From: Eledone cirrhosa
Taxonomy: Eukaryota
Reading direction: 5' to 3'
Assembly: GCA_964016885.1 (NCBI GenBank)
Contig: OZ024743.1
Coordinates: 12,338,001-12,402,000 of the forward strand
Length of the DNA stretch: 64,000 nucleotides
Below the pieces are notes generated by a model. That model made no database searches. It was not told where the DNA came from and saw only the letters and a list, made by a program, of their open reading frames with translations. The number at the start of each line of letters is the position of its first letter. Positions within the stretch are counted from its first letter, which is position 1. Shown here piece after piece: positions 4,900-50,160 of this stretch. Position numbers and translations under genes: made by a program.

Positions 4900-5640
4900 C
4901 TGTAATACAAATAATTATAATAAAAAACTATGTCAGATCATTAAAAAAATTATACATATAAAGATATATGGATGAGTGGATAACTAAAGATATATGGATG
5001 AGTGGATGGATAGATAGTCCTGTAACTCCTGGTGTAATCGTAGAGATGCCATATTGACATACAGCATTTCTAGGGCATTTTTAAACCTGGTTTCCATCCC
5101 TCTCCAGGTCAGAATGTAGCAGATTTCTTTTAGAGAAGGACAGAGAGTGAGAGAAAGGAAGTGAAGAAGAAACAGGGGAAGAATTGGCCCCAGTATTAGA
5201 CTGGTACTTTTTTTATCAACCTCGAAAAGATGAAAGGCAAAGTTGACTTCAGCGAGCAGAGAGCAGAGAGCCAAAACAATTACGGCAAAACATTCTATCC
5301 GATGAATTTGCCGCCTGTCAAAATATATATATTTCAGCTAATTAAAATATTTTCTATTAATTACTTACTCTTGCAAGAAAATCAACCTAGGACAAAAGGA
5401 AAATTAATTCTATAGCTAGAAACAGGCGTTAAATTAAAACACAAGCCAATGTGGTCATTTGACCTACTAGGAATAATATCCACATCTCCCAAAAAAACAC
5501 CCATGTGTATATATCTACGTATGTATGTGTGTGTATGTATGTAAATATATATATATATATATATAGTGAAAGAATAACATTATTGGCTGTACAAAAAGGT
5601 TTTATTTACAGTATTACCTTAAACAATACCTAATTATCCT

Positions 5641-7534
5641 ATCAAAGATATGAAGATGGGGAAGGTAACCGGTCCATCAGGTATAGCTGCCGAGATGCTG
5701 AAGGCATCTGGGTCGGTAGATCACACTATAACCACACGTATTGTTAACCAGGTAATACTAGAAGGTGTCATCCCAAAAGATTGGTGCAGTAGCATCATTG
5801 TCAACTGCTACAAAGGTAAAGGTGATGCACTAAATAGAGGAAACTATAGAGGTATAAAGCTGATGGACCAGGTCATGAAAGTAACAGAAAGAGTTATAGC
5901 ACAGTTGATTAGGGTCCAGGTGAAACTAGATGAGACGCAATTTGGGTTTGTACCAGGAAGAGGCACCACTGATGCCCTCTTCCTTGTGAGGCAGTTACAG
6001 GAAAAGTACCTAGCTAAAAGTAAGCCACTCTACCTGGCATTCGTCGATCTTGAGAAAGCCTTTGACAGAGTACCACGTGCTATAATAATTAGTAGATGAA
6101 TGGCTTGTGAAAGCTGTACAGGCCATGTATAGGGGAGCAGTCAGCAAAGTTAGGATTAGCAATGAGTATAGTGAGGAATTTAGCGTACAGGTCGGTGTCC
6201 ACCAGGGCTCTGTTCTTAGCCCTTTCCTGTTCATCGTAGTCCTGCAGGCAATAATGGAGGAGTTTAAGACCGGATGCCCATGGGAACTCCTGTATGCAGA
6301 TGACCTTGCACTTATAGCTGAATCAATGGTAGAACTAGAGAAGAAATTCCAAACTTGGAAGCAGGGACTAGAAAGAAAGGGTCTCAAAGTCAACCTGACA
6401 AAGACTAAGGTCCTTGTAAGTAGACGAGAAAACAGAACCCAGATCCCCTCAGGGAAATGGCCTTGCTCAGTATGTAGGAAAGGTGTAGGTAGGAATTCCA
6501 TTCTCTGCCCCAAATGCAAACAATGGGTACACAATGGGTACACAAGAGATGTAGCGGGATCTCAGGAAGCTTAATTAAGAATGTAGGCTTCACATGTAGC
6601 AGCTGTGCTGGGATAGCAAGCAGCAAACAGCCACAGGAAACAAGTACCCCCAGTCTCTGAGAGGGCTCTGTAGAAACAGTAGACAGCTTCTGCTACCTAG
6701 GTGACTGAATTAGCAGCGGAGGTGGGTGTTCAGAAAGTACAATAACTAGGGTAAGAACGGGATGGAAGAAGTTCAGGGAGCTACTGCCACTGCTAGCTGC
6801 AAAAGATTTTTCCCTCAAAATGAAAGGCAGACTGTATGATGCATGTATACGAACAGCAATGTTACATGGTAGTGAGACCTGGATGTTGAATGTGGAAACT
6901 TGCGTAGATTAGAAAGAAACGAAGCCTGCATGCTCAGATGGATGTGTAATAGTAATATACGTGAATGGCAAAGCATAAATGAATTGAGAGAGAGACTGAG
7001 CATAAGAGGAATCAAACGCTGTGTGCAGGAGAGGCAGTTGCGTTGGTATGGACATGTGATGCGTATGAAGGATGACAGCTGCATAAAAAGGTACAGAGCA
7101 CTAGAAAACCTGGGATGAGGGATAAAAGCCGATCTTACCCAATTATACCTCTCAAAGGCGATGACACATGACCGTGACCTCTGGCGTCACGCAGTAATAC
7201 AGAGTACCCAACCTCCCATGGGTACAAGCCAAAGCTGAAGCATATAGACAATATGCCCCCACACCCTCCCACTGCAAAGTGGTCATGGAGGTGCCACGGC
7301 AAAAAAGCACCCAGCCCACACTGTAAAGTGGACGTGTAGGCACCATGGAAAAAAAAGCACCCACCACTCACTGTAAATGAGGTTGGTGTTAGGAAGGGCA
7401 TCCAGCTGTAGAAATCAAGCCAGAATCAGTTCCTGTATGAGCAAGACAAGGTCAGCCGACCAGACACTGCCCACAACAGGACAACCCATCTAACCCATGG
7501 TAGCGTGGAAGAACGGACATAAAATGGTGATGAT
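5641..7534 (+). mobile_element. RTE-clade LINE, subfamily A, 5'-truncated and degenerate
   Basis: RT fragments (QFGF..GRGTTDA, DLEKAFD, LLYADD) broken by indels; 3' UTR and short (ATG)n tail run into (TA)n. Confidence 0.92.
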
Positions 7535-8470: not shown

Positions 8471-9906
8471 TTACCCACTCTACTACCCTAAGTATTGAGT
8501 ACTCTGGTGTGTTATGGTCCACCTGGTTCCTTACCACAATTCCTTCGTTATATATATATATATACACACACACATACTCACACTCACACAAGTAAATATG
8601 CATACACAAACATATTCAGGTATAATTTTATCACATACCAATACACACATATGTCCTTTACTATTTTGCTGATTTTACATGTGAGAAACATAGCCAAAAA
8701 GCTGATAGGTTAGAAATAGATGCCAATTCATTAATTGAAAATGTTATTTTAAATTTGTCTGCTTTCCAATATTTCAACAAGACAATTTCCAAAATGGCCA
8801 CATTCCTTTGACACAACAGCCACCTCATCTAGTTTGTTAGTAAATGAATAAGAATCTCATGTTAAATGAACTGATGTTTCCTGATGGTGTCCTTGTTGTT
8901 CTTGTTTTAGTTGTTTAATGAAAGGAGATTCAAATTCTCCTCAGTAAGAGAAAGCTGTAGGTAGGAAATATTTGAATTCAGCATTAAGAGCAATACAAGA
9001 ATAATATATCATCATACAGTATCCCCACCCCAACTTGTTAACAGCAATCATCTCTACTTAGGATAATCAGTAGATTAGGTTATAAAGGAAGTTAAAAATC
9101 GAAATTCCTTTAAGGAGAAGAAACTATAGCTGTGAAGGATTTGAATTCAACACCAAAAATTCTTTAATCCTTTAACTTTATCGCATGCTTGGATTAATAC
9201 AATTATTTGGTCTTTCAGGGTCTTAAGTGGAATCTATTCTTTTACAAGCAATTGGATCAGGTCTCCAATCTAGATGCCATTTGCTCATTCTCTCTTTACC
9301 CACCCCACTCACATCACTAAATTCATCCTTGAATTCCCACTACCTCGTTCAAAGCCAAGTGCACCCCAAAATACCCATAATATCGCCAAACATTCACTCA
9401 CTCACCATAAAACCACCCCACCCAATCTCTACAAACCTTGCTACCATTCCCTCACTTCTATCACTGCCCTCCTAGCTTGGTTGAGGACACAAATGCCCTA
9501 GTGTTGAAATGTGGTTGTGCTGATGCCACAATAAAATGCACTCAGCCCACACTATAAAATGGCAGTGCTGGTGCCATTATAAAATGCAGCACACTGTAAA
9601 GCAGTAGTGTTAGTACCATGATAAAAAGCACCCAATTTATCCTGGTAGGTGGAAGTGGGGGACGGTGATAAAATGTATACTGTACATACTGTGAAGTTGT
9701 TGGCATTAAGAAAGGCATCCAACCATAGAAACTATGTCAGAATGGAACGTATGAGTAAGATGCAGTCATCTAACCTGTCAGAACATGACAGGTTATCTAG
9801 AACATGATCAGTCATCAGAACATGACAGCTTATCTAACCAATGCAAGTATAAGACAGTGATTATGATGATAATGATTATTATTATCATCATTACTATTAT
9901 CATTAT

Positions 9907-10080
9907 TGAGGCGGTGAATTGGTAGCATCGGGCGCCATGCTTTCTAGCATAGTTACATCCCTTTACAGTCTGAGTTCAAATCCCGCCGAGGTTAACTTTG
10001 CCTTTTATCCTTACGGGGTCGATAAAATAAAGTACCAGTAATGTACTGGGTGATTGCTGGCCTTGTGCCAAAGTAGAAAC
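9907..10080 (+). mobile_element. Older tRNA-derived SINE family (other copies at about 16235-16445, 16560-16770, 57706-57887 on the minus strand)
   Basis: GAGTTCAAATCCCGCCGAGGTTAACTTTGCCTTT...GATAAAATAAAGTACCAG recurs many times in the window. Confidence 0.7.
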
Positions 10081-18039: not shown

Positions 18040-18960
18040 ATCAGCAGTGGTGGAGGGTGCTCTGAAAGTACAGTAACGGGATGGAAAAAAAACGGGATGG
18101 AAAAAGTTCAGAGAGCTTATACCACTATTCGCCGCTAAACGTTTCTCTCTAAAAATGAAAGGAAGGCTGTATGATGACTGCATACGAACAGCAATGTTAC
18201 ATGGCAGTGAGACTTGGGCATTGTGTGCAGAGGATATACGCAGACTGGAGAGGAACGAAGCTTGCATGCTCCGTTGGATGTGTAATAGTAATATACTTGT
18301 ACGGCAAAGCATAAATGAACTAAGTGAGAAATTAGGAATAAGAGGGATCAGATGCTGTTTACTCGAGAGAAGACTACGTTGGTATGGTCACATGATGCGC
18401 ATGAAAGACAACAGCTGCATAAAAAAGTGCAGGGCGATCAAAATAGATGGTAGCCACGGTGTAGGCAGACCCAGAAAAACCTGGGACGACTTAATAAATT
18501 CCGACCTCACACACTTACACCTCTCCAAGACAATGTGACTGGGCCGAGATCTTTGGCGCTACGCAGTAATACAGAAGATCCGCCTACAGTCAGTAGGCAC
18601 CTCTTAACAAAAATACACCCCCATCCCACTACCCCCAACCCATCCACACCACCCCTTTCGATGTAAAGTTATGTTGGTACCACAACATCCAGTCCTAAAT
18701 AAATGAGGTCGTGTAGGTGTCACGACAAAAAAACACACAGTCCACGCTGTAATGTGGCCGTGCAGGTAACACGGTAAAAACCTCCGAGTCCACACTGTAA
18801 ACGTGGTTGGTGTTAAGAAGGGCATCCAGCCGTAGAAAACCCGCCAGACAGTCCTATACGAGCAAGACAACCAATCTAATCTTGCCTCAAGTGGGAAAAT
18901 TCCCGTCCAAACCCATGCTAGCGTGGAAGACGGACGTTAAACGATGATGATGATGATGAT

Positions 18961-19164: not shown

Positions 19165-19261
19165 GTAGGTCCCGGGTTGAGTCGGGGATAACCACAGTAA
19201 GTAAGGTACTCAATACATGGCAGAGTAAAATTTTTTTATATATTTTTTATTTATTTATTTT

Positions 19262-19375
19262 ATAGAAGGAGCTTCTACAGGACTAGTACTGTTTCATTCA
19301 GATGAAATCTTCAGGAAGCTTCCTGAAGATTTCATCTGAATGAAACAGTACTAGTCCTGTAGAAGCTCCTTCTAT
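19262..19375. repeat. Perfect 114-bp palindrome
   Basis: Centre AG|CT at 19318/19319, no spacer and no mismatch seen. Confidence 0.95.
19317..19367 (+). ncRNA. Type I hammerhead ribozyme motif, intact core (mirror copy at 19270-19320 on the minus strand)
   Basis: AGCTTC-CTGAAGA-tTTCAtcTGAAt-GAAA-CAGtactagtcCTG-TA-GAAGCT: stems I, II and III pair; GUA cleavage site. Confidence 0.8.
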
Positions 19376-19389
19376 TATATATATAGCCC

Positions 19390-21984
19390 TGAAACAGAGG
19401 CCAACCTGGAGAAGAAAGATCTGGAAGCTGAAAGTCCCCTCAACCAGTAACAGATTTAAAGATATTTTACTCAACGCCTACGACAGTAAAGAAGAACAGA
19501 TAGAGACATTTAACGTAGAAGAGAACTGGGAGTTCCTAAAAAATAACTTACTAGAGGCGACGGATGAGGTTTGTGGCTGGAGTAAGACCTCAAGCAGGAG
19601 GAGAGTGACTTGGTGGTGGAACAATAAGGTAGATGAAGCAGTCAAGGCCAAGAGACAGGCATGGAAAGAATGGAAGAACGGGGGGAGCAGGGTACATTAC
19701 ATAGAGACCAAGAGGGAAGCTAGGCGACAAGTATACTTAGCTAGGAGGGAAGCAGAGGATAGAAAATTCAAGCATGTTTTACAACGTGAGGACCAGAAAC
19801 AGGAGGTATTCAAGATTGCGAGGCAGTGTGTCAGAGATAGTTGTGATGTCATTGGAGAGAAGTGTATCCGGAATGATAAAGGTGAGCTTGCCCTCACAAG
19901 TGCTGAGAAGAAAGATGCATGGAAGAGTCATTATGATAGATTACTAAATGAGGAGAATGCATGGGAAGAAGAGACCCTACCCCACGTAGACCCTATAGAG
20001 GGACCAGCAGTACAAGTCAGCGGCAGCGTAGTAAGTAAGGCAATCAGAGATATGAAGATAGGGAAGGCAACCGGTCCATCGGGTATAGCTGCCGAGATGC
20101 TGAAGGCATCTGGGTCTGTAGGTCACACTATAACCACACGTATCGTTAACCAGGTAATACTAGAGGGGGCCATACCAAAAGATTGGTGCAGTAGCATCAT
20201 TGTCAACTGCTACAAAGGTAAAGGCGATGCACTAGATAGAGGAAACTATAGAGGTATAAAGTTGATGGACCAGGTCATGAAAGTAACAGAAAGAGTTATA
20301 GCACAGCTGATTAGGGACCGGGTGAATATAGACGAGATGCAATTTGGGTTTGTACCAGGGAAAGGCACCACTGATGCCCTCTTCCTTGTGAGGCAATTAC
20401 AGGAAAAGTACCTAGCTAAAAGTAAGCCACTCTACTTGGCATTTGTCGACCTTGAGAAAGCCTTTGACAGAGTTCCACGTGCAGTAATCTGGTGGGCTCT
20501 TAGAAAACTAGGAGTAGATGAATGGCTTGTGAAAGCGGTACAAGCCATGTATAGGGGGAGCAGTCAGCAAAGTTAGGATTGGCAATGAGTATAGCGAGGA
20601 ATTTAGCGTACAGGTTGGGGTCCACCAGGGCTCTGTTCTTAGCCCTCTCCTGTTCATCATAGTCCTGCAGGCAATAACGGAGGAGTTTAAGACCGGATGC
20701 CCATGGGAACTCCTGTATGCTGATGACCTCGCACTCATAGCTGAATCTATGGTAGAACTAGAGAATAAATTCCAAACCTGGAAGCAGGGACTAGAGAGAA
20801 AGGGCCTCAAAGTCAACATGACAAAGACTAAGGTCCTTATAAGTAGACGAGAAAACAGAACCCAGATCCCCTCAGGGAAATGGCCTTGCTCAGTATGTAG
20901 GAAAGGTGTAGGTAGGAACTCCATTCTCTGCCCCAAATGCAAACAATGGGTACACAAGAGATGTAGCGGGATCTCAGGAAGCTTAATTAAGAATGTAGGA
21001 TTCACATGCAGCAGCTGTGCTGAAACAGCAAGCAAACAGCCACAGGAAACAAGTACCACCAATCTCTGGGAGGGCCCTGTAGAAACAGTAGACAGCTTCT
21101 GCTACCTAGGTGACCGAATTAGCAACGGAGGTGGGTGCTCAGAAAGTACAATAACTAGGGTAAGAACGGGATGGAAGAAGTTTAGGGAACTACTACCACT
21201 GCTAGCTGCAAAAGGCTTCTCCCTCAGAATGAAAGGCAGACTGTATGATGCGTGTATCCAAACAGCGATGTTGCATGGTAGTGAGACCTGGGCGCTGAAG
21301 GTGGAAGACTTACGTAGATTAGAGAGAAACGAAGCCTGCATGCTCCGATGGATGTGTAACAGTAATATACGTGAACGACAAAGCATAAAGGAATTGAGAG
21401 AGAGACTGAGCATAAGAGGAATCAAATGCTGCGTGTAGGAGAGGCGGTTACGCTGGTATGGACATGTGATGCGTATGAAGGATGACAGCTGCATAAAAAG
21501 GTGCAGAGCACTAGAAGTTGATGGAAACCGCGGAGTGGGGAGACCCAAGATGACTTGGGATGAGGTGATAAAAGCCGACCTTACCCAACTACACCTCTCA
21601 AAGTCAATGACACACGACCGTGACTTCTGGCGTCACGCAGTAATACAGGGTACCCGACCTCCCATGGGTACATGCTGAAGCATATAAACAATATGCCCCC
21701 ACACCCCCCCACCGCAAGGTGGTCGTGGAGGTGCCACGGCAAAAAAGCACCCAGCCCACACTGTAAAGTGGACGTGTAGGCGCCACGAAAAAGCACCCAG
21801 CACTCACTGTAAATGAGGTTGGTGTTAGGAAGGGCATCCAGCTGTAGAAATTAAGCCAGATCAGTTCCTGTATGAGCAAGGCATGGTCAGCCGACCAGAC
21901 ACTGCCCACAACAGGACAACCCGTCTAACCCATGCTAGCATGGAAGAACGGACGTAAAACGGTGATGATGATGATGATGATGAT
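19390..21984 (+). mobile_element. RTE LINE subfamily A, about 2.6 kb, 5'-truncated, young
   Basis: ORFs 19605-20576, 20749-21438 and 21466-21678 join after one frameshift (about 20555) and one stop (21436); full RT with YADD; (ATG)n tail. Confidence 0.95.
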
Positions 21985-21995
21985 ATATATATGTA

Positions 21996-22415
21996 TAGTG
22001 GTTAGAGCATTGGGCTGGCAATCGAAAGTTTGTGAGTTCAATTCTCGGACCAGGTGGTGTGTTGTTTCCTTGAGCAAGACACTTTATTTCACATTGTTCC
22101 AGTTTACTCAGCTGTAGAAATGAGATGATAGGACTGGGGTCCCTATCATTCCACTGCAAAGTGGTCATGGAGGTGCCACGGCAAAAAAGCACCCAGCCCA
22201 TACTGTAAAGTGGACGTGTAGGTGCCACAGAAAAAAAGCACCCAGCTCTCACTGTAAATGAGGTTGGTGTTAGGAAGGGCATCCAGCTGTAGAAATCAAG
22301 CTAGAATCAGTTCCCGTATGAGCAAGACAAAGTCAGCCGACCGCACACTGCCCACAGCAGAACCCGTCTAACCCATGCTAGCGTGGAAGAACGGACGTAA
22401 AACGGCGATGATGAT
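21996..22415 (+). mobile_element. tRNA-derived SINE with RTE subfamily A 3' end
   Basis: Partial A box, B box GTTCAATTC, CORE-like CCTTGAGCAAGACACTTTA; body and tail match the subfamily A 3' UTR. Confidence 0.85.
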
Positions 22416-23498
22416 AGATATATATATGCATGTATAAATATATATATATATATACACATATATATGTATGTATGTATAAATATATATAAAAGCGGACATA
22501 AAAATGATGATGATGATGATGATATACAAACATACAAATGTGTGTGTGTGTGAATAATGCGATGAAGATATCTTTATAATGGAATTGAACATCTGTATTC
22601 AGTCATTCTACATATTTTGTAATGCACACATGCTCTCATATATATATACCTATATAATGCAAGCCATATGTATATATATATAATATATACGTTTGTCATT
22701 CTCTGAATTGACATGAAATCTTTTTATTATTAGGCTAATAAATATACATGGGGGTTCTGTGCTGAATCCAATTTTATAATTGGTTCACACCATCTGGTGC
22801 TTCAAGTAGATCCTGCTAAATTCAAAAACCTAGTATTTAGAATTTCCTACCAATTAAAGATGAAAGCTGGACAGGAAAAAGTATTGGTAGTGGTGGTGGT
22901 GATATCGGTGGTGATGGCTTAGGGATATTTGTTTATTTTTGTGAGAGGGGGGGGGTTACTTTAGTTCAATTTTCATGTTTCTTTTTGTGTGTTTTTTTTT
23001 CATGTTTCTTTTTGTGTGTTTTTTAATGTATTTTTCCAAAATAGGAGAAAAAAAAAATGGTTTCAAATGGAGAAAAATATTTTTTCAAAAATCATTAATT
23101 CAAATTGTTTGTGTGATAATAACTTTGGAAACAGCCAGAAGAGGAAATTCTAACTAAAAATAAACTGAAGGAGATGCCAGCTGTTTTAACAGAATGCGAA
23201 GAACTTTGCCATCAACTACAATTGCTGCTGTTGCAATAAAATAATGACAATAGTTTTTTTATTGTTGTTTTTTTTTATCATAGAATAGTATAGATTAAAG
23301 ACATGATTGAGTGGTTAAGAAATTTACTTTATAACCATATGGTTTCAAGTTCATTCTCAACTGGGTTAAGTATCTTCTACATTTTAGTCACAGTGTGAAT
23401 GAAAACTGCGAAAAGCCGTTGTTTGAAATCAAACAGTTCTAGTCATATAGATGTCATTTTTATATGAAATAAATATGTACCTTCTCTAGTAATGTATT

Positions 23499-23828
23499 CA
23501 TCATCATTTTATGTCCACTTTTCCTTGCTTGCAAGGGTGGGACGGGAACTGATTCTGGCTTGATTTCTACAGCTGGATGCCCTTCCTAACACCAACCTCA
23601 TTTACAGTGAGTACTGGGTGCTTTTTGCTGTGGCACCTCCACGACCACTTTGCAGTGGAATGATAGGGACTCCAGTCCCTATCATCTCATTTCTACAACT
23701 GAGTAAACTGGAGCAATGTGAAATAAAGTGTCTTGCTCAAGGAAACAACACATCACCCGGTGTGAGAATTGAACTCACAACCTTTCGATTGCAAGCCCAA
23801 TGCTCTAACCACTAAACCATGTGCCTCC
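23499..23828 (-). mobile_element. tRNA-derived SINE with RTE subfamily C tail
   Basis: A/B boxes, CORE-like segment, tail CCCGTCCCACCCTTGCAAGC...(ATG)n. Confidence 0.85.
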
Positions 23829-24348: not shown

Positions 24349-27286
24349 TCATCATCATCATCATCAGCAACGTTTAACGTCCGTGTTCTACGCTTGCATG
24401 GGTTTGGACGGGGGTAGTCCCACTTGAGGCAAGAGTGATTTTCTTGCTCGCATAGGACTGTCTGGCAGGTTTTCTACAGTTGGATGCCCTTCCTAACACC
24501 AACCACATTTACAGTGTGGGTCTGGGAGGTTTTTACCGTGTTGCCTACACGGCCACATTACAGCGTGGACTGTGTGTTTTTTTGTCGTGATACCTACACG
24601 ATCTCATTTGTTTCGGCCTGGATGGCGCGGCACCAACATAACTTTACATAGAACGGGGTGGTGTGGATGGGGTGGGGGTGGTGGTGGTGGGACGGGGTGT
24701 ATTTTGTTAGAGATGCCTACTGGCAAGGCGGGTCTTCTCTATTACTGAGTACCGCCAAAGGTCTCGGTCCAGTGACATTGTCTTGGTGAGGTGTAAGTGT
24801 GTGAGGTCGGAGTTTATCAGCTCGTCCCAGGTTTTTCTGGGTCTGCCTATTCCGTGGCTACCGTCTATCTTTATTGCCCTGCACTTTGTTATACAGCTAT
24901 CATCCTTCATGCGCATCACGTGACCATACCAACGTAGCCTTCTCTCGAGTAAACAACATCTGATCCTTCTTATTTCTAATTTTTTCCTTAGTTCGTTTAT
25001 GCTTTGTCGTTCACGTATATTACTATTACACATCCAGCGGAGCATGCAAGCTTCGTTTCTCTCTAGTCTGCGTATATCCTCTGCACACAATGCCCAGGTC
25101 TCACTGCCATGCAACATTGCTGTTCGTATGCAGGCATCGTACAGCCTGCCTTTCATTTTTAGGGAGAACCCTTTAGCGGCTAATAGTGGTATAAGCTCTC
25201 TGAACTTTTTCCACCCAGTTCTGACTCTAGCTACTGTACTTTCAGAGCACCCTCCCCCACTGCTGATTTTGTCACCCAGGTAACGGAAGCTATCCACTAT
25301 TTCTATAGAACCCTCTGCGCAGTTGAAAGAGCTAGTATTTTGTGGGCACTTGCTGCTACTTATATCCCCAGAACACCGGCCACATGTAAAATCTATGTTC
25401 TTAGTTAGCTTACCTGTGATCCCACTACATCTTTTATGCACCCAAACTTTGCATTTGGGACACAAAATGGAATTTCTACCTACGCCTTTCCTACACTCTG
25501 CGCATGGCCACTTCCCGGAGGGGACCGCCGCCTTATTTTCTTTCTTACAAACTAGAACTTTAGTCTTAGCTAGGTTAATTTTAAGGCCTTTTGATTCTAG
25601 GCCGTGCTTCCATGTTTGGAATTTCTTCTCTAGCTCGGCCATTGATTCAGCTATGAGCGTTAGATCATCTGCGTATAGGAGTTCCCATGGGCAGCCGGTC
25701 TTGAACTCCACTGTTATAGCCTGAAGGGCAATAATAAATAGTAGGGGGCTAAGAACAGAGCCCTGATGAACACCAACTTTTACACTAAACTCTTCACTAT
25801 ATTCGTTGTTAATTCTAACCTGGCTAACTGTTTCTTTATACATGGCTTGTATAGCTCTCACAAGCCATTCATCAACACCTAGTTTTCTAAGAGCCTACCA
25901 GATAATGGAACGGGGGACTCTGTCGAAGGCCTTCTCCAAGTCGACGAAAGCTAAGTATAGGGGTTTACTTTTAGCTAGGTACTTCTCCTGTAGTTGTCGT
26001 ACAATGAAAAGAGCGTCTGTGGTACTTTTTCCTGACACAAACCCGAACTGCATTTCATCTAGATCAATTCGCTCTCTGATTAGTTGCGCTATAACTTTTT
26101 CCGTGACCTTCATGACCTGGTCGATTAATTTAATGCCTCTATAGTTACTCCTATCTAGGGCATCTCCTTTACCCTTATAACAGTTAACGATAATGCTGCT
26201 GCGCCAGTCCTTCGGAACAACCCCATTCTGTATGACTTGGTTGACTATCCGGGTGACCATGGTGTGTCCCACCGTACCAGATGCCTTCAGCATCTTGGCA
26301 ACTATTTCCGAAGGCCCAGCCGCCTTGCCTGTCTTCATATCTTTGATTGCCTTACTTATTATACTACCCTCGACTAACACTGCTGGTCCCTCTATTGGGT
26401 CGATGTGGGGGAGACTGTCTTTCTCCCATTTATTCTCCTCATTTAGTAGCCTTTCATAGTGACACTTCCAAGCTACCTTCTTATCGGCGTCGGTGATGGC
26501 AAGTATGCCGTCATCGTTAAGTACACACTTCTCCCCGACAATATCACTGTTTTCCTTGACACATTGCCTAGCAATCCTGAACACCTCACGTTTTTGGTCC
26601 TCGCGTTGTAGAACATGCTTGAACTTTCTTTCCTCTGCTTCCCTTCTTGCGAAGTACACTTGTCTCCTAGCTTCCCTCCTGGCCACTTGATAGTCTTCTC
26701 TGCTTCCCCCATCCCGCCATACTTTCCAAGCCTGCTTTTTGGCCTTAATTGACCCCTCCACCTTACTGTTCCACCACCATGTTACTCTCCTCCTGCCTAC
26801 AGGCCTGCTCCAGCCACAGACTTCGTCTGCCACCGTCAGCAGGTTTGCTTTCAGGAATTCCCACTGTTCCTCTACCTTGTACGTCTCTAATTGCTCTTCC
26901 TCACTGTCGAAAGCATCAAGTAATATGCTTTGGAATTTATTTTTGGCTTTGGGGTCCTTTAGCTTCCATATTTTTCTCCTGAGGATAGTCCTCTTCTGTT
27001 GTCTAGTACGTCTCGTCCTGACTATTAGGTCGCTAATTATCAGTCTATGTTGGGAAGTGCATTCTTCATGGGGGAGGGATTTAGTGTTTACGACAGTCAC
27101 TTTGTCACGTCTTCTGGTAAGGATATAATCTACCTGGCTAGTATGTTCCCCTGATCTGTAGGTGATCAAGTGATTGTCTCGTTTTTTGAAGTTAGTGTTG
27201 CAGATAGTTAGGTTATTTGCGTCGCAGAATTCCAGGATTCTGGAGCCTTCCTCATTTCTAGTACCAAACCCATAGCCTCCATGGAT
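24349..27286 (-). mobile_element. RTE LINE subfamily B, about 2.9 kb, truncated within the endonuclease
   Basis: ORFs 27169-25895 and 25861-24707 are in the same frame, separated by one TAG (TGG in other copies); (CAT)n tail at 24349; (TA)n on both flanks. Confidence 0.95.
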
Positions 27287-27613: not shown

Positions 27614-28378
27614 TATATTAATAAAAGGAATTCCAACTTTGTCTGATTTACTCGTTTTATTTACAATCCTTTAAAATTATAATGATATTATAATGAAATA
27701 GTATGGTAGAATATTAAATGTTAAGTGTTAATTGAACAAGCACTTGCATGCTTTCGCAATCTTCAGGTTCATATTCAGTGGTGTCAGTCAAGTTTGCAAT
27801 TTTCAACTCTAATGAGATGGGTAAATTCTGTGCCTTATATACAGTAAAAAGGGGCTCCAGAATGCTAAGTTTTGCAAACTGTATTTCGACCAATCGGCGT
27901 GTAGTTTCACTAGATTACTAAAGCTGATTGGTTTAGGCGTCACGGTTGGTTGAGCATGTCTAATGACTTCTATTTGACCCTATCCAAAGCATCAATTGCT
28001 ATTTTTAGAAATGATGAAAATAGAAGTCTTTAGACATGCTCAACCAACTGTGATGCCTAAACCAATCAGCTTTAGTAATCTAGTGAAACTACACACCGAT
28101 TGGTCGAAATACAGTTTGCAAAACTTAGCATTCTGGAGCCCCTTTTACTGTATATAAGGCACAGAATTTACCCATCTCATTAGAGTTGAAAATTGCAAAC
28201 TTGACTGACACCACTGAATATGAACCTGAAGATTGCGAAAGCATGCAAGTGCTTGTTCAATTAACACTTAACATTTAATATTCTACCATACTATTTCATT
28301 ATAATATCATTATAATTTTAAAGGATTGTAAATAAAACGAGTAAATCAGACAAAGTTGGAATTCCTTTTATTAATATA
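27614..28378. repeat. Fold-back inverted repeat, about 361-bp arms and 42-bp spacer (Penelope pLTR-like)
   Basis: Arms 27614-27975 and 28018-28378 differ at about 5 positions; each carries a hammerhead motif. Confidence 0.9.
28221..28259 (+). ncRNA. Minimal type I hammerhead motif (mirror copy at 27733-27771 on the minus strand)
   Basis: TGAAC-CTGAAGA-ttgc-GAAA-GCAtgcaagTGC-TT-GTTCA. Confidence 0.72.
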
Positions 28379-36400: not shown

Positions 36401-36749
36401 ATCATCATCATCATCATTTCATTTTACGTCCGCTTTTTCCCTGCTTGCAAGGGTGGGACGGGAACTGATTCTGGCTTGATTTCTACAGCTGGATGCCCTT
36501 CCTAACACCAACCTCATTTACAGTGAGTGCTGGGTGCTTTTTTGCCATGGCACCTCTACGACCACTTTGCAGTGGAATGATATGGACCCCAGTCCCTATC
36601 ATCTCATTTCTACAGCTGAGTAAACTGGAGCAATGTGAAATAAAGTGTCTTGCTCAAGGAAACAACACATCACCCAGTCTGAGAATTGAACTCACAACCT
36701 TTCGATTGCAAGGCCAATGCTCTAACCACTAAGCCATGTATGTGCCTCC
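36401..36749 (-). mobile_element. tRNA-derived SINE with RTE subfamily C tail, inside the hAT relic
   Basis: Same family as 23499-23828. Confidence 0.85.
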
Positions 36750-38420: not shown

Positions 38421-39030
38421 CATCATCATCATCATCATCATCATTTTACGTCCGCTTTTCCCTGCTTGCAAGGGTGGGACGGGTCTTATTCAGCACAGCA
38501 TCTCTCCACTCGTCACGGTCCCTCGTCATCTCCACCGTGAGCTTCAATGATCTGAGGTCTGTTCTCACCACCTCCGCCCATGTTTTTCGTGGTCTACCTC
38601 TACCACGTCTTCCTTCAACTGGCATTTCCTGGCACTTCTTCACCCATCGGTCATCCTCCATGCGCATCACATGTCCATACCACCTCAGTCTCCTCTCCCG
38701 TACACTACATTCTATCCCTCTCAGACACAGTTTCTCTCTCAACACATTTATGCTGGGTCGTTCACGCACATTTACACTGCACATCCAACGGAGCATGCTT
38801 GCCTCATTTCTCTCCAGCCGTCGCATATCTTCTGCGGTAGCTGCCCATGTCTCACTATCATGCAGCATTGTGCTCCTCACACAGGCATCATACAACCGGC
38901 CTTTCGTACGCAGGGAGAAACCCTTCTTCGTCAACAGAGGAAGCAGCTCCCTAAACTTCTTAGGGAGATGCTTCCTCTGTTGACGAAGAAGGGTTTCTCC
39001 CTGCGTACGAAAGGCCGGTTGTATGATGCC
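38421..39030 (-). mobile_element. RTE LINE subfamily C 3' fragment with a 5' inverted duplication, inserted in a hAT transposase
   Basis: C-terminal RT ORF; (CAT)n tail at 38421; 38961-39030 mirrors about 38883-38952. Confidence 0.9.
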
Positions 39031-45408: not shown

Positions 45409-48400
45409 GATGATGATCATCATCATCATCATTTTACGTCCGCTTTTCCCTGCTTGCAAGGGTGGGACGGGTCTTATTCAGCACAGCATCTCTCCACTCG
45501 TCACGGTCCCTCGTCATCTCCACCGTGAGCTTCAATGATCTGAGGTTTGTTCTCACCACCTCCGCCCATGTTTTTCATGGTCTACCTCTACCACGTCTTC
45601 CTTCAAATGGCAATTCCTGACACTTCTTCACCCATCGGTCATCCTCCATGCGCATCACATGTCCATACCACCTCAGTCTCCTCTCCCGTACACTACATTC
45701 TATCCTTCTCAGACACAGTTTCTCTCTCAACACATTTATGCTGGGTCGTTCACGCACATTTACACTGCACATCCAACGGAGCATGCTTGCCTCATTTCTC
45801 TCCAGCCGTCGCATATCCTCTGCAGTTGCTGCCCATGTCTCACTACCATGCAGCATCGCGCTCCTCACACAGGCATCATACAACCGGCCTTTCGTACGCA
45901 AGGAGAAACCCTTCTTCGTCAACAGAGGAAGCAGCTCCCTAAACTTCTTCCAACCCGTCCTTATTCTAGATACTATGGCCTCGGAACACCCTCCTCCCAT
46001 GCTAATCTGATCTCCTAGGTACCGGAAGCTATCCACCACTTCCATAGCGCCCTCTTGCATTTGAAAAATGTGTCTATCAATGCGACTTCTACTGTCTAAT
46101 TTCCCTGTACATCTACTGCATACATATTTCTCCCTACCTGTTAGTTTGCCTGCTATCCCGCTACATCTCTTGTGTACCCAGGATCTGCATTGTGTGCATT
46201 TTATAGAATTTATGCCAGTTCCTTTTCTGCATATCGAACATGGCCATTTCCCTGACGGAATCAGGGTTTTGTCCTCTTTTCTACTCATCAACACTTTTGT
46301 CTTAGCTAGATTCACTCTCAGTCCTCTTGCTTCCAACTGCTGTTTCCATAGCCGGAATTTATTCTCTAGCTCCTCTACTGATTCTGCTATAAGAACCAGA
46401 TCATCAGCATAGAGAAGTTCCCATGGACAGCCAGTCTTAAACTCCTCTGTTATGGCTTGGAGGACTATAAAGAACAAGAGCGGGCTGAGGACCGAACCCT
46501 GATGTACTCCTACTTGTATCTGGAATTTCTCACTAAACTCCATTCCTACCCTGACTTTACTGAGAGTACCTCTGTACAAAGTTTGCACTGTCCTCACAAG
46601 CCATTCCTCAACACCTAGCTTCCTTAGGGACCACCAGATGACAGATCGAGGTACCCTATCAAAGGCCTTCTCTAGGTCAACAAAGGCTAAGTATAGTGGC
46701 TTATTCTTCTCTAAGAACCTCTCTTGCAATTGTCTCACCAAGAAGAGGGCATCTGTTGTACTCTTCCCAGGCACAAAACCAAACTGCATCTCATCTAGTT
46801 TGACCCTTTCTCTAATTAGTTGCGCTAAAATCCTTTCTGCCACTTTCATAACCTGATCTATCAGTTTTATACCCCTATAATTGCTCCTCTCCAAAGCATC
46901 CCCTTTACCTTTGTAGCAATTTATGAGAATACTGCTGCACCAGTCTTTGGGTATGACACCACCATATATAGCCTGATTGATGATGCGTGCAACCAGTTTA
47001 GTGCCTACATCCCCTGATGCCTTCAGCATCTCAACAACTATTCCCGATGGTCCGGCAGCCTTACCATTTTTCATTTCCCTAATCGCCTCTTGGACCCTAT
47101 ATTCGTCAATCTCAATAGCTGGTCCCTCTGTCGGATCCACCAAGGGTAATTTCTCTCTCTCCCATTCGTTCTCCACATTCATTAGTCTCTCATAATGACA
47201 TTTCCAGGCCTCCTTTTTCTGATCATTCGTGACACTAAGTACACCGGCATCATCCCAGACACATTTATCTCCAACAACATCCTGATTTGCATTGACACAC
47301 TGCCTTGCAATGTGGAACACCGCATGCCTCTGATCTTCCCGTCGCAGAACATTGGCAAACCTCCTACTCTCTGCCTCCCTGCGTGCTAAGTACACCTGAC
47401 GTCTAGCTTCTCTCTTAGTGGCTGTATATTCTTCCCTACTCCCACCCTTTTTCCAAGCCTTCCATGCTAGTCTTTTGTCTCTAATAGCCTTATCTACTGT
47501 GCTGTTCCACCACCAGGTCACTCTCTGTCTGGTTGGAGCTCTGCTCCAGCCACAGGTTTCATCAGTAGCCTGCAGCAAGTTGTCACGTAAGAAATTCCAG
47601 TTATTATCTATGTCATACGTCTCTAAATCGTCTTCTTTTTCGTCATATACATCTTGAAGGGCTTTCCTAAATTTGTATTTTAGTGTAAGGTCTTTTAGCT
47701 TCCAGACCTTTCTTCTCCACACCTTCCTATATGTCTCATTCCATCTCTTGCTTACTGAGATATCACTAACAACTAACCTATGCTGTGGGGTACATTCTTC
47801 CCCAGGGTATGCCTTGGTATTAGACACTATCTGCCTGTCCCGCTGCCTAACTAGCAGGAAGTCAATCTGGCTTATGTGCTCACCAGATTTGTAGGTTATT
47901 AGGTGATTGGCAGGTTTCTGGAAGTTTGTGTTGCAAATAGTCAATGTACCCGCATCACAAAATTCAAGAAGTCTCACTCCTTCTTCATCATCATCATCAC
48001 CGTTTTACGTCTGTTCTTCCACGCTAGCATGGGTTAGACGGGTTGTCCTGTTGTGGGCAGTGTCTGGTCGGCTGACCATGCCTTGCTCATACAGGAACTG
48101 ATCTGGCTTGATTTCTACAGCTGGATGCCCTTCCTAACACCAACCTCATTTACAGTGAGTGCTGGGTGCTTTTTCGTGGCGCCTACACGTCCACTTTACA
48201 GTGTGGGCTGGGTGCTTTTTTGCCGTGGCACCTCCACGACCACCTTGCGGTGGGGGGGGGGGGGGCATATTGTTTATATGCTTCAGCATGTACCCATGGG
48301 AGGTCGGGTACCCTGTATTACTGCGTGACGCCAGAAGTCACGGTCGTGTGTCATTGACTTTGAGAGGTGTAGTTGGGTAAGGTCGGCTTTTATCACCTCA

Positions 48401-50160
48401 TCCCAAGTCATCTTGGGTCTCTCCACTCCGCGGTTTCCATCAACTTCTAGTGCTCTGCACCTTTTTATGCAGCTGTCATCCTTCCTACGCATCACATGTC
48501 CATACCAGCGTAACCGCCTCTCCTCCACGCAGCATTTGATTCCTCTTATGCTCAGTCTCTCTCTCAATTCCTTTATGCTTTGTCGTTCACGTATATTACT
48601 GTTACACATCCATCGGAGCATGCAGGCTTCGTTTCTTTCTAATCTACGTAAGTCTTCCACCTTCAGCGCCCAGGTCTCACTACCATGCAACATCGCTGTT
48701 CGGATACACGCATCATACAGTCTGCCTTTCATTCTGAGGGAGAAGCCTTTTGCAGCTAGCAGTGGTAGTAGTTCCCTAAACTTCTTCCATCCCGTTCTTA
48801 CCCTAGTTATTGTACTTTCTGAGCACCCACCTCCGTTGCTAATTCGGTCACCTAGGTAGCAGAAGCTGTCTACTGTTTCTACAGGGCCCTCCCAGAGATT
48901 GGTGGTACTTGTTTCCTGTGGCTGTTTGCTTGCTGTTTCAGCACAGCTGCTGCATGTGAAGCCTACATTCTTAATTAAGCTTCCTGAGATCCCGCTACAT
49001 CCCTTGTGTACCCATTGTTTGCATTTGGGGCAGAGAATGGAGTTCCTACCTACACCTTTCCTACATACTGAGCAAGGCCATTTCCCTGAGGGGATCTGGG
49101 TTCTGTTTTCTCGTCTACTTATAAGGACCTTAGTCTTTGTCATGTTGACTTTGAGGCCCTTTCTCTCTAGTCCCTGCTTCCAGGTTTGGAATTTATTCTC
49201 TAGTTCTACCATAGATTCAGCTATGAGTGCGAGGTCATCAGCATACAGGAGTTCCCATGGGCATCCGGTCTTAAACTCCTCCGTTATTGCCTGCAGGACT
49301 ATGATGAACAGGAGAGGGCTAAGAACAGAGCCCTGGTGGACCCCAACCTGTACGCTAAATTCCTCGCTATACTCATTGCCAATCCTAACTTTGCTGACTG
49401 CTCCCCTATACATGGCTTGTACCGCTTTCACAAGCCATTCATCTTCATTTCTTGAACCGTAACCGTGCCCACCATGTACCCCAGTGTAACCATCCTGGAG
49501 CTGTCCAACATGACCATTGAAGTCTCCTGCTAGCATAACAATGTCTCCGTCCTCTGTCATTGCGGTTGTTTGCAAAAGTTGCTCATAAAAGCAGTCTTTC
49601 TCATCTTTGCCTAGGCCTGCTTGGGGAGCATAGGCCGAGATGATTGTCAGTAGTCTCCTACCTACAACTAATCTAAGCTTAATTATTCGATTACTAACTC
49701 GAACTACCTCTATTGTCTTATTGATCCATTTCTCAGCCAGGAAAATGCCTACTCCCCCTAGCCCATCATCCTTACCTACCCAGAATAGCTTATAGATAAG
49801 ACGCTTGCCTACGACTAGTCTCGCAGAGGCACCTCTCCATCTCACCTCTTGCACACAGCATACATCCACCTGCCTTCTCTCCAGCATCTCCGCTATTTCA
49901 GCAGATCTACCTCTGAGAGTGCCAACATTAAGTGTTGCAACTCTGAGATGCGACGTCTTCATATTTTGTTGTTGTTCCTATTTGTTGCTGTGCTGATAAG
50001 CGTTTTGGCATTGATACACTGGTTGGATGCCCTTCCTAACACCAGCGCCACTTTACAGCATGGACTGGGTGCTTTTATTTGTGCCACCAGCACTAGAGAG
50101 GATGTCTTACTAGACTCAAGGGCCCTCTCTACCCCTCCATTTTATGGCATGGTCATAGAA
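45409..50160 (-). mobile_element. RTE LINE subfamily C, near full length (5' UTR, EN, RT, tail), interrupted by a subfamily A copy
   Basis: ATG at 49962 with EN start (LRVATLNVGTL, CCVQEVRW); continues in frame at 47983 to the stop at 45575; (CAT)n tail. Confidence 0.93.
47989..49441 (-). mobile_element. RTE LINE subfamily A, 5'-truncated, nested in the subfamily C copy
   Basis: Nearly identical to about 20516-21984; 7-bp TSD TCTTCAT at 47982-47988 and 49442-49448. Confidence 0.93.

What the first reader, a model, noticed from the sequence alone, without database searches (positions are those of the whole stretch)
21705..21850. Covarying hairpin plus H-type pseudoknot module shared by RTE 5' UTR, RTE 3' UTRs and SINEs
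The subfamily A 3' UTR repeats a unit of a CCAC-TGYAAA-GTGG-type hairpin followed by CGTGG-a-GGTG-CCACG-gcaaaaaag-CACC (21724-21751), a compact pseudoknot with an A-rich loop. Subfamily B has CCGTG-c-AGGT-aa-CACGG-taaaa-ACCT (18758-18783). The subfamily C 5' UTR has GTGC-t-GGTG-GCAC-aaataaaag-CACC (50093-50068), about 105 nt upstream of its ATG. Both stems show compensatory changes, and each array ends in GGTGTTAGGAAGGGCATCC. An older copy with about four units lies at 9500-9730. RTE 5'-derived SINE bodies are known. A 5'-UTR module relocated and amplified in the 3' UTR of autonomous LINEs, with pseudoknot covariation, is not something I can place; it could be an IRES-like, nuclease-blocking or RT-recruiting element.
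Basis: partly seen in the sequence, partly recalled or inferred. Interest (0 to 1): 0.72.

Follow-up and report, generated by a model that had tools for sequence, protein, structure and literature searches.

The report
Retrotransposon leader moved to its tail
A short piece of jumping-gene leader, predicted to fold into small RNA knots and still followed by its old start codon, sits in front of the gene in one family of this genome but behind the gene in two sister families, likely because it is a movable handle that helps the RNA dock on ribosomes wherever it lies.

Summary
The motifs are at the stated coordinates. They are the 3' end of an RTE LINE leader: knot K2, hairpin/knot K1, a 41-nt knot D (GGAAGGGCATCC), then ATG. 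Subfamily C carries it only 5' of the ORF, A and B only 3' (16 of 16 and 4 of 4 long copies). Four RTE 5' ends from metagenomes have D with an in-frame ATG 22-28 nt after an anchor; 43 of 63 own 3'-type copies keep an ATG at 23-29. This fits capture of a 5'+3' bipartite element behind the ORF. D is 33 of 34 identical between A and B, whose ORFs are about 75% identical. Covariation is weaker than claimed: K2 stem 1 covaries, stem 2 is invariant or partly broken in three of four 3' units, D shows no two-sided change, CpG decay mimics compensation, nested folding is not above shuffles. Unit number varies in 5' and 3' UTRs alike. No ribozyme match, no fixed cut site. Best reading: portable ribosome-docking or RNP handle, untested. 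This scan noted the module before in at least four other windows of this genome.

The parts
21649..21668 (+). Probable remnant of the original short RTE tail at the end of the subfamily A ORF (inferred)
   Evidence: Starts like the C tail, which lies inside the end of the C ORF; older relatives show the same remnant
21709..21722 (+). 5-bp hairpin with GCAA (GNRA-type) loop; K1 variant without its first stem (predicted)
   Evidence: Sequence; other copies read CCACT/AGTGG instead of CCACC/GGTGG
21723..21751 (+). K2 unit 1: predicted H-type pseudoknot, stem 1 CGTGG/CCACG, stem 2 GGTG(C)/(G)CACC, A-rich loop 3; both stems intact
21752..21771 (+). K1: CCAC/GTGG hairpin around CTGTAAA, with a possible CAG/CTG second stem (predicted; the second stem never varies)
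21772..21797 (+). K2 unit 2: degenerate duplicate, stem 1 4 bp, stem 2 with a C.A mismatch
   Evidence: not found by the descriptor
21798..21817 (+). K1 variant (CTCA/TGAG)
21817..21857 (+). D: most conserved part; predicted knot, stem 1 GGTTGG/CCAGCT, stem 2 GGC(A)/(T)GCC, loop 3 GTAGAAA..
21872..21928 (+). Retained ATG and 18-codon mini-ORF behind D, at the spacing of true RTE start codons
21920..21959 (+). RTE 3' tail stem-loop, followed by (GAT)n
   Evidence: RTE tail hairpins are described in PMC6007223 (passages)
21996..22420 (+). SINE: tRNA-like head, CORE-like body (label recalled), A-type module and A-type tail
   Evidence: sister copies at 23762-23819 and 36675-36738 match Rfam tRNA above the gathering score
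18709..18845 (+). Subfamily B 3' UTR array: K2 (18709-18737), K1, K2 (18758-18783), K1, D (18805-18845)
50007..50152 (-). Subfamily C 5' UTR module: K1-type hairpin (50137-50152), 8-bp stem (50094-50131), K2 (50068-50093), K1 (50048-50067), D (50007-50046); ATG at 49962
9500..9740 (+). Old decayed array with about four units, D and a tail remnant
19391..21678 (+). 5'-truncated subfamily A RTE ORF (RT plus PHD finger), frameshifted in this copy

Best explanation
The flagged stretch is the end of an RTE retrotransposon leader (predicted knots K2, K1 and D, then ATG) that the ancestor of subfamilies A and B likely captured behind its ORF as part of a 5'+3' non-autonomous element, and it likely works as a movable handle that docks the RNA on ribosomes. 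Shown: position 5' in C and in four RTEs from other sources, 3' in A and B, central in SINEs; retained ATG; strong conservation of D; labile unit number. Inferred: in the leader D places the start codon on the small subunit; in 3' UTRs and SINEs the same fold keeps the RNA beside ribosomes that make RTE protein, as the Alu 5' domain is proposed to do for L1 protein; A and B then took new, module-free leaders; K2-K1 duplicates arose by slippage and are partly decaying.
For: Exclusive position: D 66-90 nt before the EN query in 25 of 30 C loci; 1 of 30 B and 4 of 30 A loci have a D upstream, at scattered places; D in the 3' UTR of 16 of 16 long A/B copies and 5' only in 4 of 4 C copies. Metagenome scan: 121 loci, 23 clusters; the four with an EN frame downstream (L151, L193, L223, L233) have the first in-frame ATG at +28, +27, +24, +22 from the G of GTAAAA. 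An older C relative (L277) starts its ORF at +21 with MST..; 16 of 19 such loci have ATG at +21 to +25. 43 of 63 distinct own copies with the long pre-tail segment keep ATG at +23 to +29, mostly MSK.., against 12.8% for arbitrary genome windows. D core 33 of 34 identical between A and young B while the ORFs are about 75% identical in DNA and 72.7% in protein. An H-type knot with A-rich loop lies before D in 3 of 23 cluster representatives, 0.39 expected; L151's has K2's layout with other stem letters. K2 pairing beats slid controls (81.7% against 28-50%) and 13 of 500 shuffles reach it.
Against: No functional or RNA data. The youngest C subfamily has lost the near ATG and starts 40-54 nt after D in most copies. 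B copies do not keep the mini-ORF frame and many C-tailed SINEs lack the ATG. D shows 0 two-sided changes in 17 sequences and does not beat shuffles (the search pattern fixed one side of each stem); its stem 2 test is weak (58 of 2000 shuffles). K2 stem 2 is partly broken in A2, B1 and B2, and over 46 unit types no stem 2 pair beats shuffles. Copies are related, so the counts are not independent events. The EN tree does not resolve A+B against C. Conservation of D could also reflect recent exchange of 3' ends. The ribosome reading was first suggested to me by earlier scan notes.
Confidence: 0.45

Rival explanations
1. The module is bound directly by the RTE protein (packaging, or control of first- or second-strand steps), like the R2 5' and 3' pseudoknots; the nearby ATG is incidental.
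For: One D per RNA in every class seen, at any position; non-coding elements keep it; R2 protein binds pseudoknots in both UTRs (PMC12222951 passages; PMC6765202 passages); a YGTAAA-like motif recurs in K1, D and the tail.
Against: C's own short tail stem-loop, shared with SINEs, is the expected RT handle; the fixed spacing to the ATG in four distant RTEs is not predicted by this reading.
Confidence: 0.25
2. The module works only in 5' UTRs; in A/B 3' UTRs and SINEs it is a passenger that came with a captured tail, and the arrays are slippage products.
For: K2-K1 units range from 0 to 5 (by eye); extra units break stem 2; nested folding is ordinary; CpG decay explains part of the apparent compensation in old copies.
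Against: D is far better conserved between A and B than their ORFs or the neighbouring UTR; K1 and D end every intact old 3' UTR examined; A and B lost the module at the 5' end yet have intact ORFs.
Confidence: 0.2
3. The knot chain protects the RNA from exonucleases or replaces a poly(A) tail, like viral xrRNAs or the tobamovirus upstream pseudoknot domain (both recalled).
For: Tandem small H-type knots near an RNA end; elements end in (GAT)n, not poly(A).
Against: Stems are 3-5 bp and partly broken; 5' breakpoints of truncated copies do not pile up at the module (14 of 14 differ); no Rfam match.
Confidence: 0.07
4. The module is a self-cleaving ribozyme.
For: RTE leaders often start with ribozymes (PMC8501958, PMC6765202 passages), and another RTE group in this genome does.
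Against: No Rfam ribozyme match on the module while the same scan finds the twisters; C copies extend well 5' of it; no fixed breakpoint; cleavage in a 3' UTR would cut the ORF from its tail, yet full-length A/B copies exist.
Confidence: 0.03

Closest known systems
Bipartite RTE elements and RTE 5'-UTR-derived SINE bodies (Kojima 2018, PMC5786205; parts 1-4 of 5 read, supplement part 1 and searches)
   Same: RTE 5' UTR piece joined to an RTE tail; tRNA head + CORE + RTE 5' + RTE 3' SINE layout; duplication of a 5' domain within a UTR is noted there for AviRTE; function left open. Older C relatives carry a motif that matches the Ceph-domain 3' half about 65 nt before K2 (13 of 21 loci; compared by eye).
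   Different: D is a different piece (GGGCATCC not found in that supplement's text; its figure S4 is not held as text). The parts read give no pseudoknot and no autonomous LINE that carries the piece in its 3' UTR.
Twister-led RTE leaders (Perere-3, PMC8501958, passages) and HDV-like ribozyme leaders of R2, L1Tc and RTE with IRES-like activity (PMC6765202, passages)
   Same: Structured RTE leader; twister-led RTEs of this genome have a D-like stem, GTAAAAA loop and a second pairing just before the reading frame (by eye).
   Different: No catalytic core or Rfam match in the module; it is not at the 5' end; it also occurs in 3' UTRs.
R2 UTR pseudoknots bound by R2 protein (PMC12222951, passages)
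   Same: Pseudoknot in a non-LTR retrotransposon UTR.
   Different: R2Tg's knot is within the last 67 nt and starts TPRT; here a separate tail hairpin holds that place and the knots lie 60-200 nt upstream.
HCV IRES pseudoknot (only the title of Berry 2010 seen, in the reference list of PMC6765202) and the Alu 5' domain (bioRxiv 10.1101/2024.12.16.628748, abstract)
   Same: A knot a short fixed distance before a start codon; a small RNA domain proposed to bring a non-autonomous element to ribosomes.
   Different: No sequence or fold homology shown; functional analogy only, untested here.

Membership tests
RTE-clade non-LTR retrotransposon (host element) | Single ORF with AP endonuclease and RT, microsatellite tail | tested here: met
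Pfam EN and RT; single ORFs of 1024-1135 aa and (GAT)n ends.
Bipartite RTE element / RTE-derived SINE body | Segment homologous to an RTE 5' UTR joined to an RTE 3' tail | tested here: met
Ceph-domain 3' half (Kojima's conserved RTE 5' domain) | Sequence similarity of the module to that domain | tested here: not met
   D motif absent from the supplement text; the Ceph-like motif lies separately, upstream of K2
H-type pseudoknot (K2) | Two interleaved stems with suitable loops | tested here: met
   A1, C, B1, older B2 and L151 fit the descriptor; A2 does not
H-type pseudoknot (K2) | Covariation in both stems | tested here: inconclusive
   Stem 1 yes; stem 2 has two single cases and several breaks; R-scape not available
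H-type pseudoknot (D) | Covariation in both stems | tested here: inconclusive
   Only one-sided G-C/G-U and U-A/U-G changes, 0 two-sided; set biased by the search pattern
Twister ribozyme | Conserved core recognised by Rfam models | tested here: not met
   No match on the module; the same model finds 9 twister-like sites elsewhere in G000, below the gathering score
HDV-like and other self-cleaving ribozymes | Rfam match; element 5' end fixed at a cut site | tested here: not met
IRES / cap-independent translation element | Fixed short distance to an in-frame start codon | tested here: met
   4 of 4 metagenomic RTE 5' ends and older C relatives; not the youngest C
IRES / cap-independent translation element | Ribosome binding and cap-independent initiation | not testable with these tools
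   needs experiments
Exonuclease-resistant RNA | Blocks Xrn1 | not testable with these tools
   no Rfam match
CORE-SINE (for the SINEs) | Similarity to the CORE consensus | not tested
   Label recalled; no repeat library on hand and the source paper was not held

The most novel reading that the evidence does not exclude
RTE retrotransposons across animals carry a position-independent ribosome-recruiting pseudoknot module: IRES-like before the start codon, a 3' translation or docking enhancer in autonomous LINEs that moved it behind the ORF, and an Alu-like ribosome handle in SINEs, which would explain why RTE 5' UTR pieces are kept in SINE bodies.
Probability: 0.25. Interest if true: 0.8.

Novelty: new variant of a known kind. 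Interest (0 to 1): 0.52.

Why it matters
Why RTE 5' UTR pieces persist in SINE bodies is left open in Kojima 2018. Here sister LINE families form a natural swap experiment: the same piece stands 5' in one and 3' in two others, with its start codon still attached. That makes the question directly testable with short RNAs. If the module recruits ribosomes from either end, it would be a new small eukaryotic translation element and a general counterpart of the Alu docking model. If not, it is still a clear case of an autonomous LINE that rebuilt its 3' end from a non-autonomous partner.

Tried and rejected
Rfam at E<=5 on the window: 102 matches, none on the module; on 12 loci only the twisters. 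ARAGORN: 0 genes. Nested folding z-scores ordinary on both strands. D pattern in viral contigs: 0. Sequencing runs: no RNA holder listed; laying three runs gave only contig coverage, no evidence on expression. EN tree of 6 proteins left A, B, C and L151 unresolved. Covariation from old single copies was set aside because stem 1 holds CpGs on both strands; 46 of 79 unit types were kept after collapsing near-duplicates. A split or permuted twister in the C leader was considered by eye and dropped: no core. Meta-domain identity: passages of PMC4824008 gave no sequence; supplements of PMC4758252 had no match in 4 files, one file not searched. Literature searches with no description of this module: exact motif; 2 unrelated papers; 0; 0; passages of two octopus repeat papers mention no UTR structure. 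Repbase/Dfam and subscription journals were not searchable, so 'not in print' is limited to these searches. PMC15861, PMC3308841 and PMC2905755 were not held.

Full report
Setting. The window lies at G000:C4:12338001-12402000 of a 3.0-Gb animal genome. It holds many copies of LINEs with endonuclease, RT and a PHD finger, in three young subfamilies: A and B (72.7% protein identity) and C (64-65% to both).

Anatomy. D is the 41-nt block around GGAAGGGCATCC, which can pair GGTTGG with CCAGCT and GGC(A) with (T)GCC after an A-rich loop. Behind D come an ATG, 18 codons and the tail stem-loop. The leads that D is a knot near the start codon, and that K1 resembles the end of the SINE body, came from earlier scan notes; I tested the first here and the second only by eye.

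Position. D lies 66-90 nt before the EN query in 25 of 30 C loci; in B 1 of 30 and in A 4 of 30 loci have a D upstream, at scattered places that read as separate insertions (many A/B loci are 5'-truncated, so the informative number is smaller). In long copies, 16 of 16 A/B elements have D in the 3' UTR and unrelated pyrimidine-rich leaders of about 550-700 nt; 4 of 4 C elements have it 5' only and end in a short tail.

Other sources. Most are non-coding repeats. Four lead into an EN frame with the first in-frame ATG at +22 to +28 from the G of GTAAAA, 6-13 nt after the knot. Three of 23 representatives examined (24 picked, 1 too short) have an H-type knot with A-rich loop just before D, against 0.39 expected from shuffles; L151's repeats the K2 layout with other stem letters and L223's has new letters throughout. 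Twister-led RTEs of this genome show a D-like fold after the ribozyme, and the HaSE1 / RTE-2_DPl 5' fragment printed in Kojima's supplement shows a like layout; both comparisons are by eye. So the 5' position is most likely ancestral.

Origin of the 3' copy. 43 of 63 distinct own copies with the long segment before the tail have their first ATG at +23 to +29 (12.8% in arbitrary genome windows; copies are related). An older C relative starts its real ORF at +21 in the same TATGAGCA context, and 16 of 19 such loci have ATG at +21 to +25. A, B and their older relatives also keep what looks like a decayed first tail at the ORF end. The simplest account is fusion of a LINE to a 5'+3' bipartite element. 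The SINEs carry A-specific letters in their module and join it to an A or C tail, so these SINEs likely took it from A.

Amplification. K2-K1 units number 0-5 in old 3' UTRs (20 loci, 3 of them truncated, by eye), and an 89-nt unit with K2 and K1 occurs 1-3 times in old C-type 5' UTRs (319 exact genome matches of the pattern). K1 plus D is the constant part.

How good is the structure? On 11 hand-picked K2 units (6 from multi-copy types, 5 single copies) 81.7% of cells pair, slid controls 28-50%, 13 of 500 shuffles reach it; 3 pairs change on both sides, 81 of 500 shuffles reach that. With the alternative top pair and K1 added, 8 cells change on both sides, 2 of 500. Stem 1 is 88.9% paired, stem 2 74.5%. 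Over 46 unit types only two stem 1 pairs beat shuffles (22 and 17 of 2000), one of them at a CpG, and no stem 2 pair does. For D, 17 sequences give 79.4% pairing against 26-57% slid, but no two-sided change and no gain over shuffles; the stem 2 duplex test gives 58 of 2000. Nested folding is ordinary. The knots are therefore plausible, best kept in 5' UTR units and in A unit 1, and not proven.

Selection in the 3' position. The D core is 33 of 34 identical between A and young B, while their ORFs are about 75% identical and the segment after D has diverged. This argues against a pure passenger, unless 3' ends were exchanged recently.

Mechanism. A knot at a fixed short distance before the start codon in distant RTEs suggests a role in initiation; retrotransposon leaders with IRES-like activity are described (PMC6765202, passages). 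Keeping D in RNAs with nothing to translate fits a docking role like that proposed for the Alu 5' domain (abstract). Direct binding by the RTE protein, as for R2 (passages), fits nearly as well. A ribozyme is unlikely: no Rfam match, 14 of 14 breakpoints differ. Against the initiation reading, the youngest C has lost the near ATG. None of this is tested by experiment, and no RNA run was listed.

Novelty. RTE 5'-derived SINE bodies and bipartite elements are known (PMC5786205, parts 1-4). The searches listed under Tried and rejected found no account of this module, its fold, or its move into the 3' UTR of autonomous LINEs; repeat databases, subscription journals and figure-only supplements were not visible. 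Verdict: real feature, new variant of a known kind, function likely but unproven; noted before by this scan elsewhere in this genome.

Noticed in passing
L031-L039, about 1501-1555: Two RTE groups in G000 begin with twister-like ribozymes lacking a fixed P1 (40-50 bits, below the gathering score), as in Perere-3; several have ACG rather than ATG in frame just after the D-like fold.
   Followed up: partly
window 48283-49977 (-), 45575-48004 (-), 20533-21438 (+), 24707-25894 (-): These RTE proteins carry a PHD finger after the RT domain.
   Followed up: no
L001-L030, L040-L069: Subfamilies C and B are very young, with many intact ORFs among the 150 listed matches each.
   Followed up: partly
L277, L304-L318, about 65 nt before the first K2: [quoted passage not shown] C changed its leader and lost an N-terminal extension.
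   Followed up: partly
L120 cluster (84 metagenome loci), e.g. L133: A short non-coding element that seems to begin at a fixed point about 35 nt before D and ends in a tail with (TG)n; it lacks D's second stem.
   Followed up: no
L105 (-) about 5600-7100; L278 2200-2600; L107 2800-3250: Old 3' UTR-type arrays with K1+D repeated several times, or with about seven K2 units.
   Followed up: no
window 19252-19385, 27614-28378, 38895-39019: Perfect or near-perfect inverted repeats at element junctions, possibly fold-back products of insertion.
   Followed up: no
window about 9910-10050: A second, different tRNA-like SINE family without the module.
   Followed up: no
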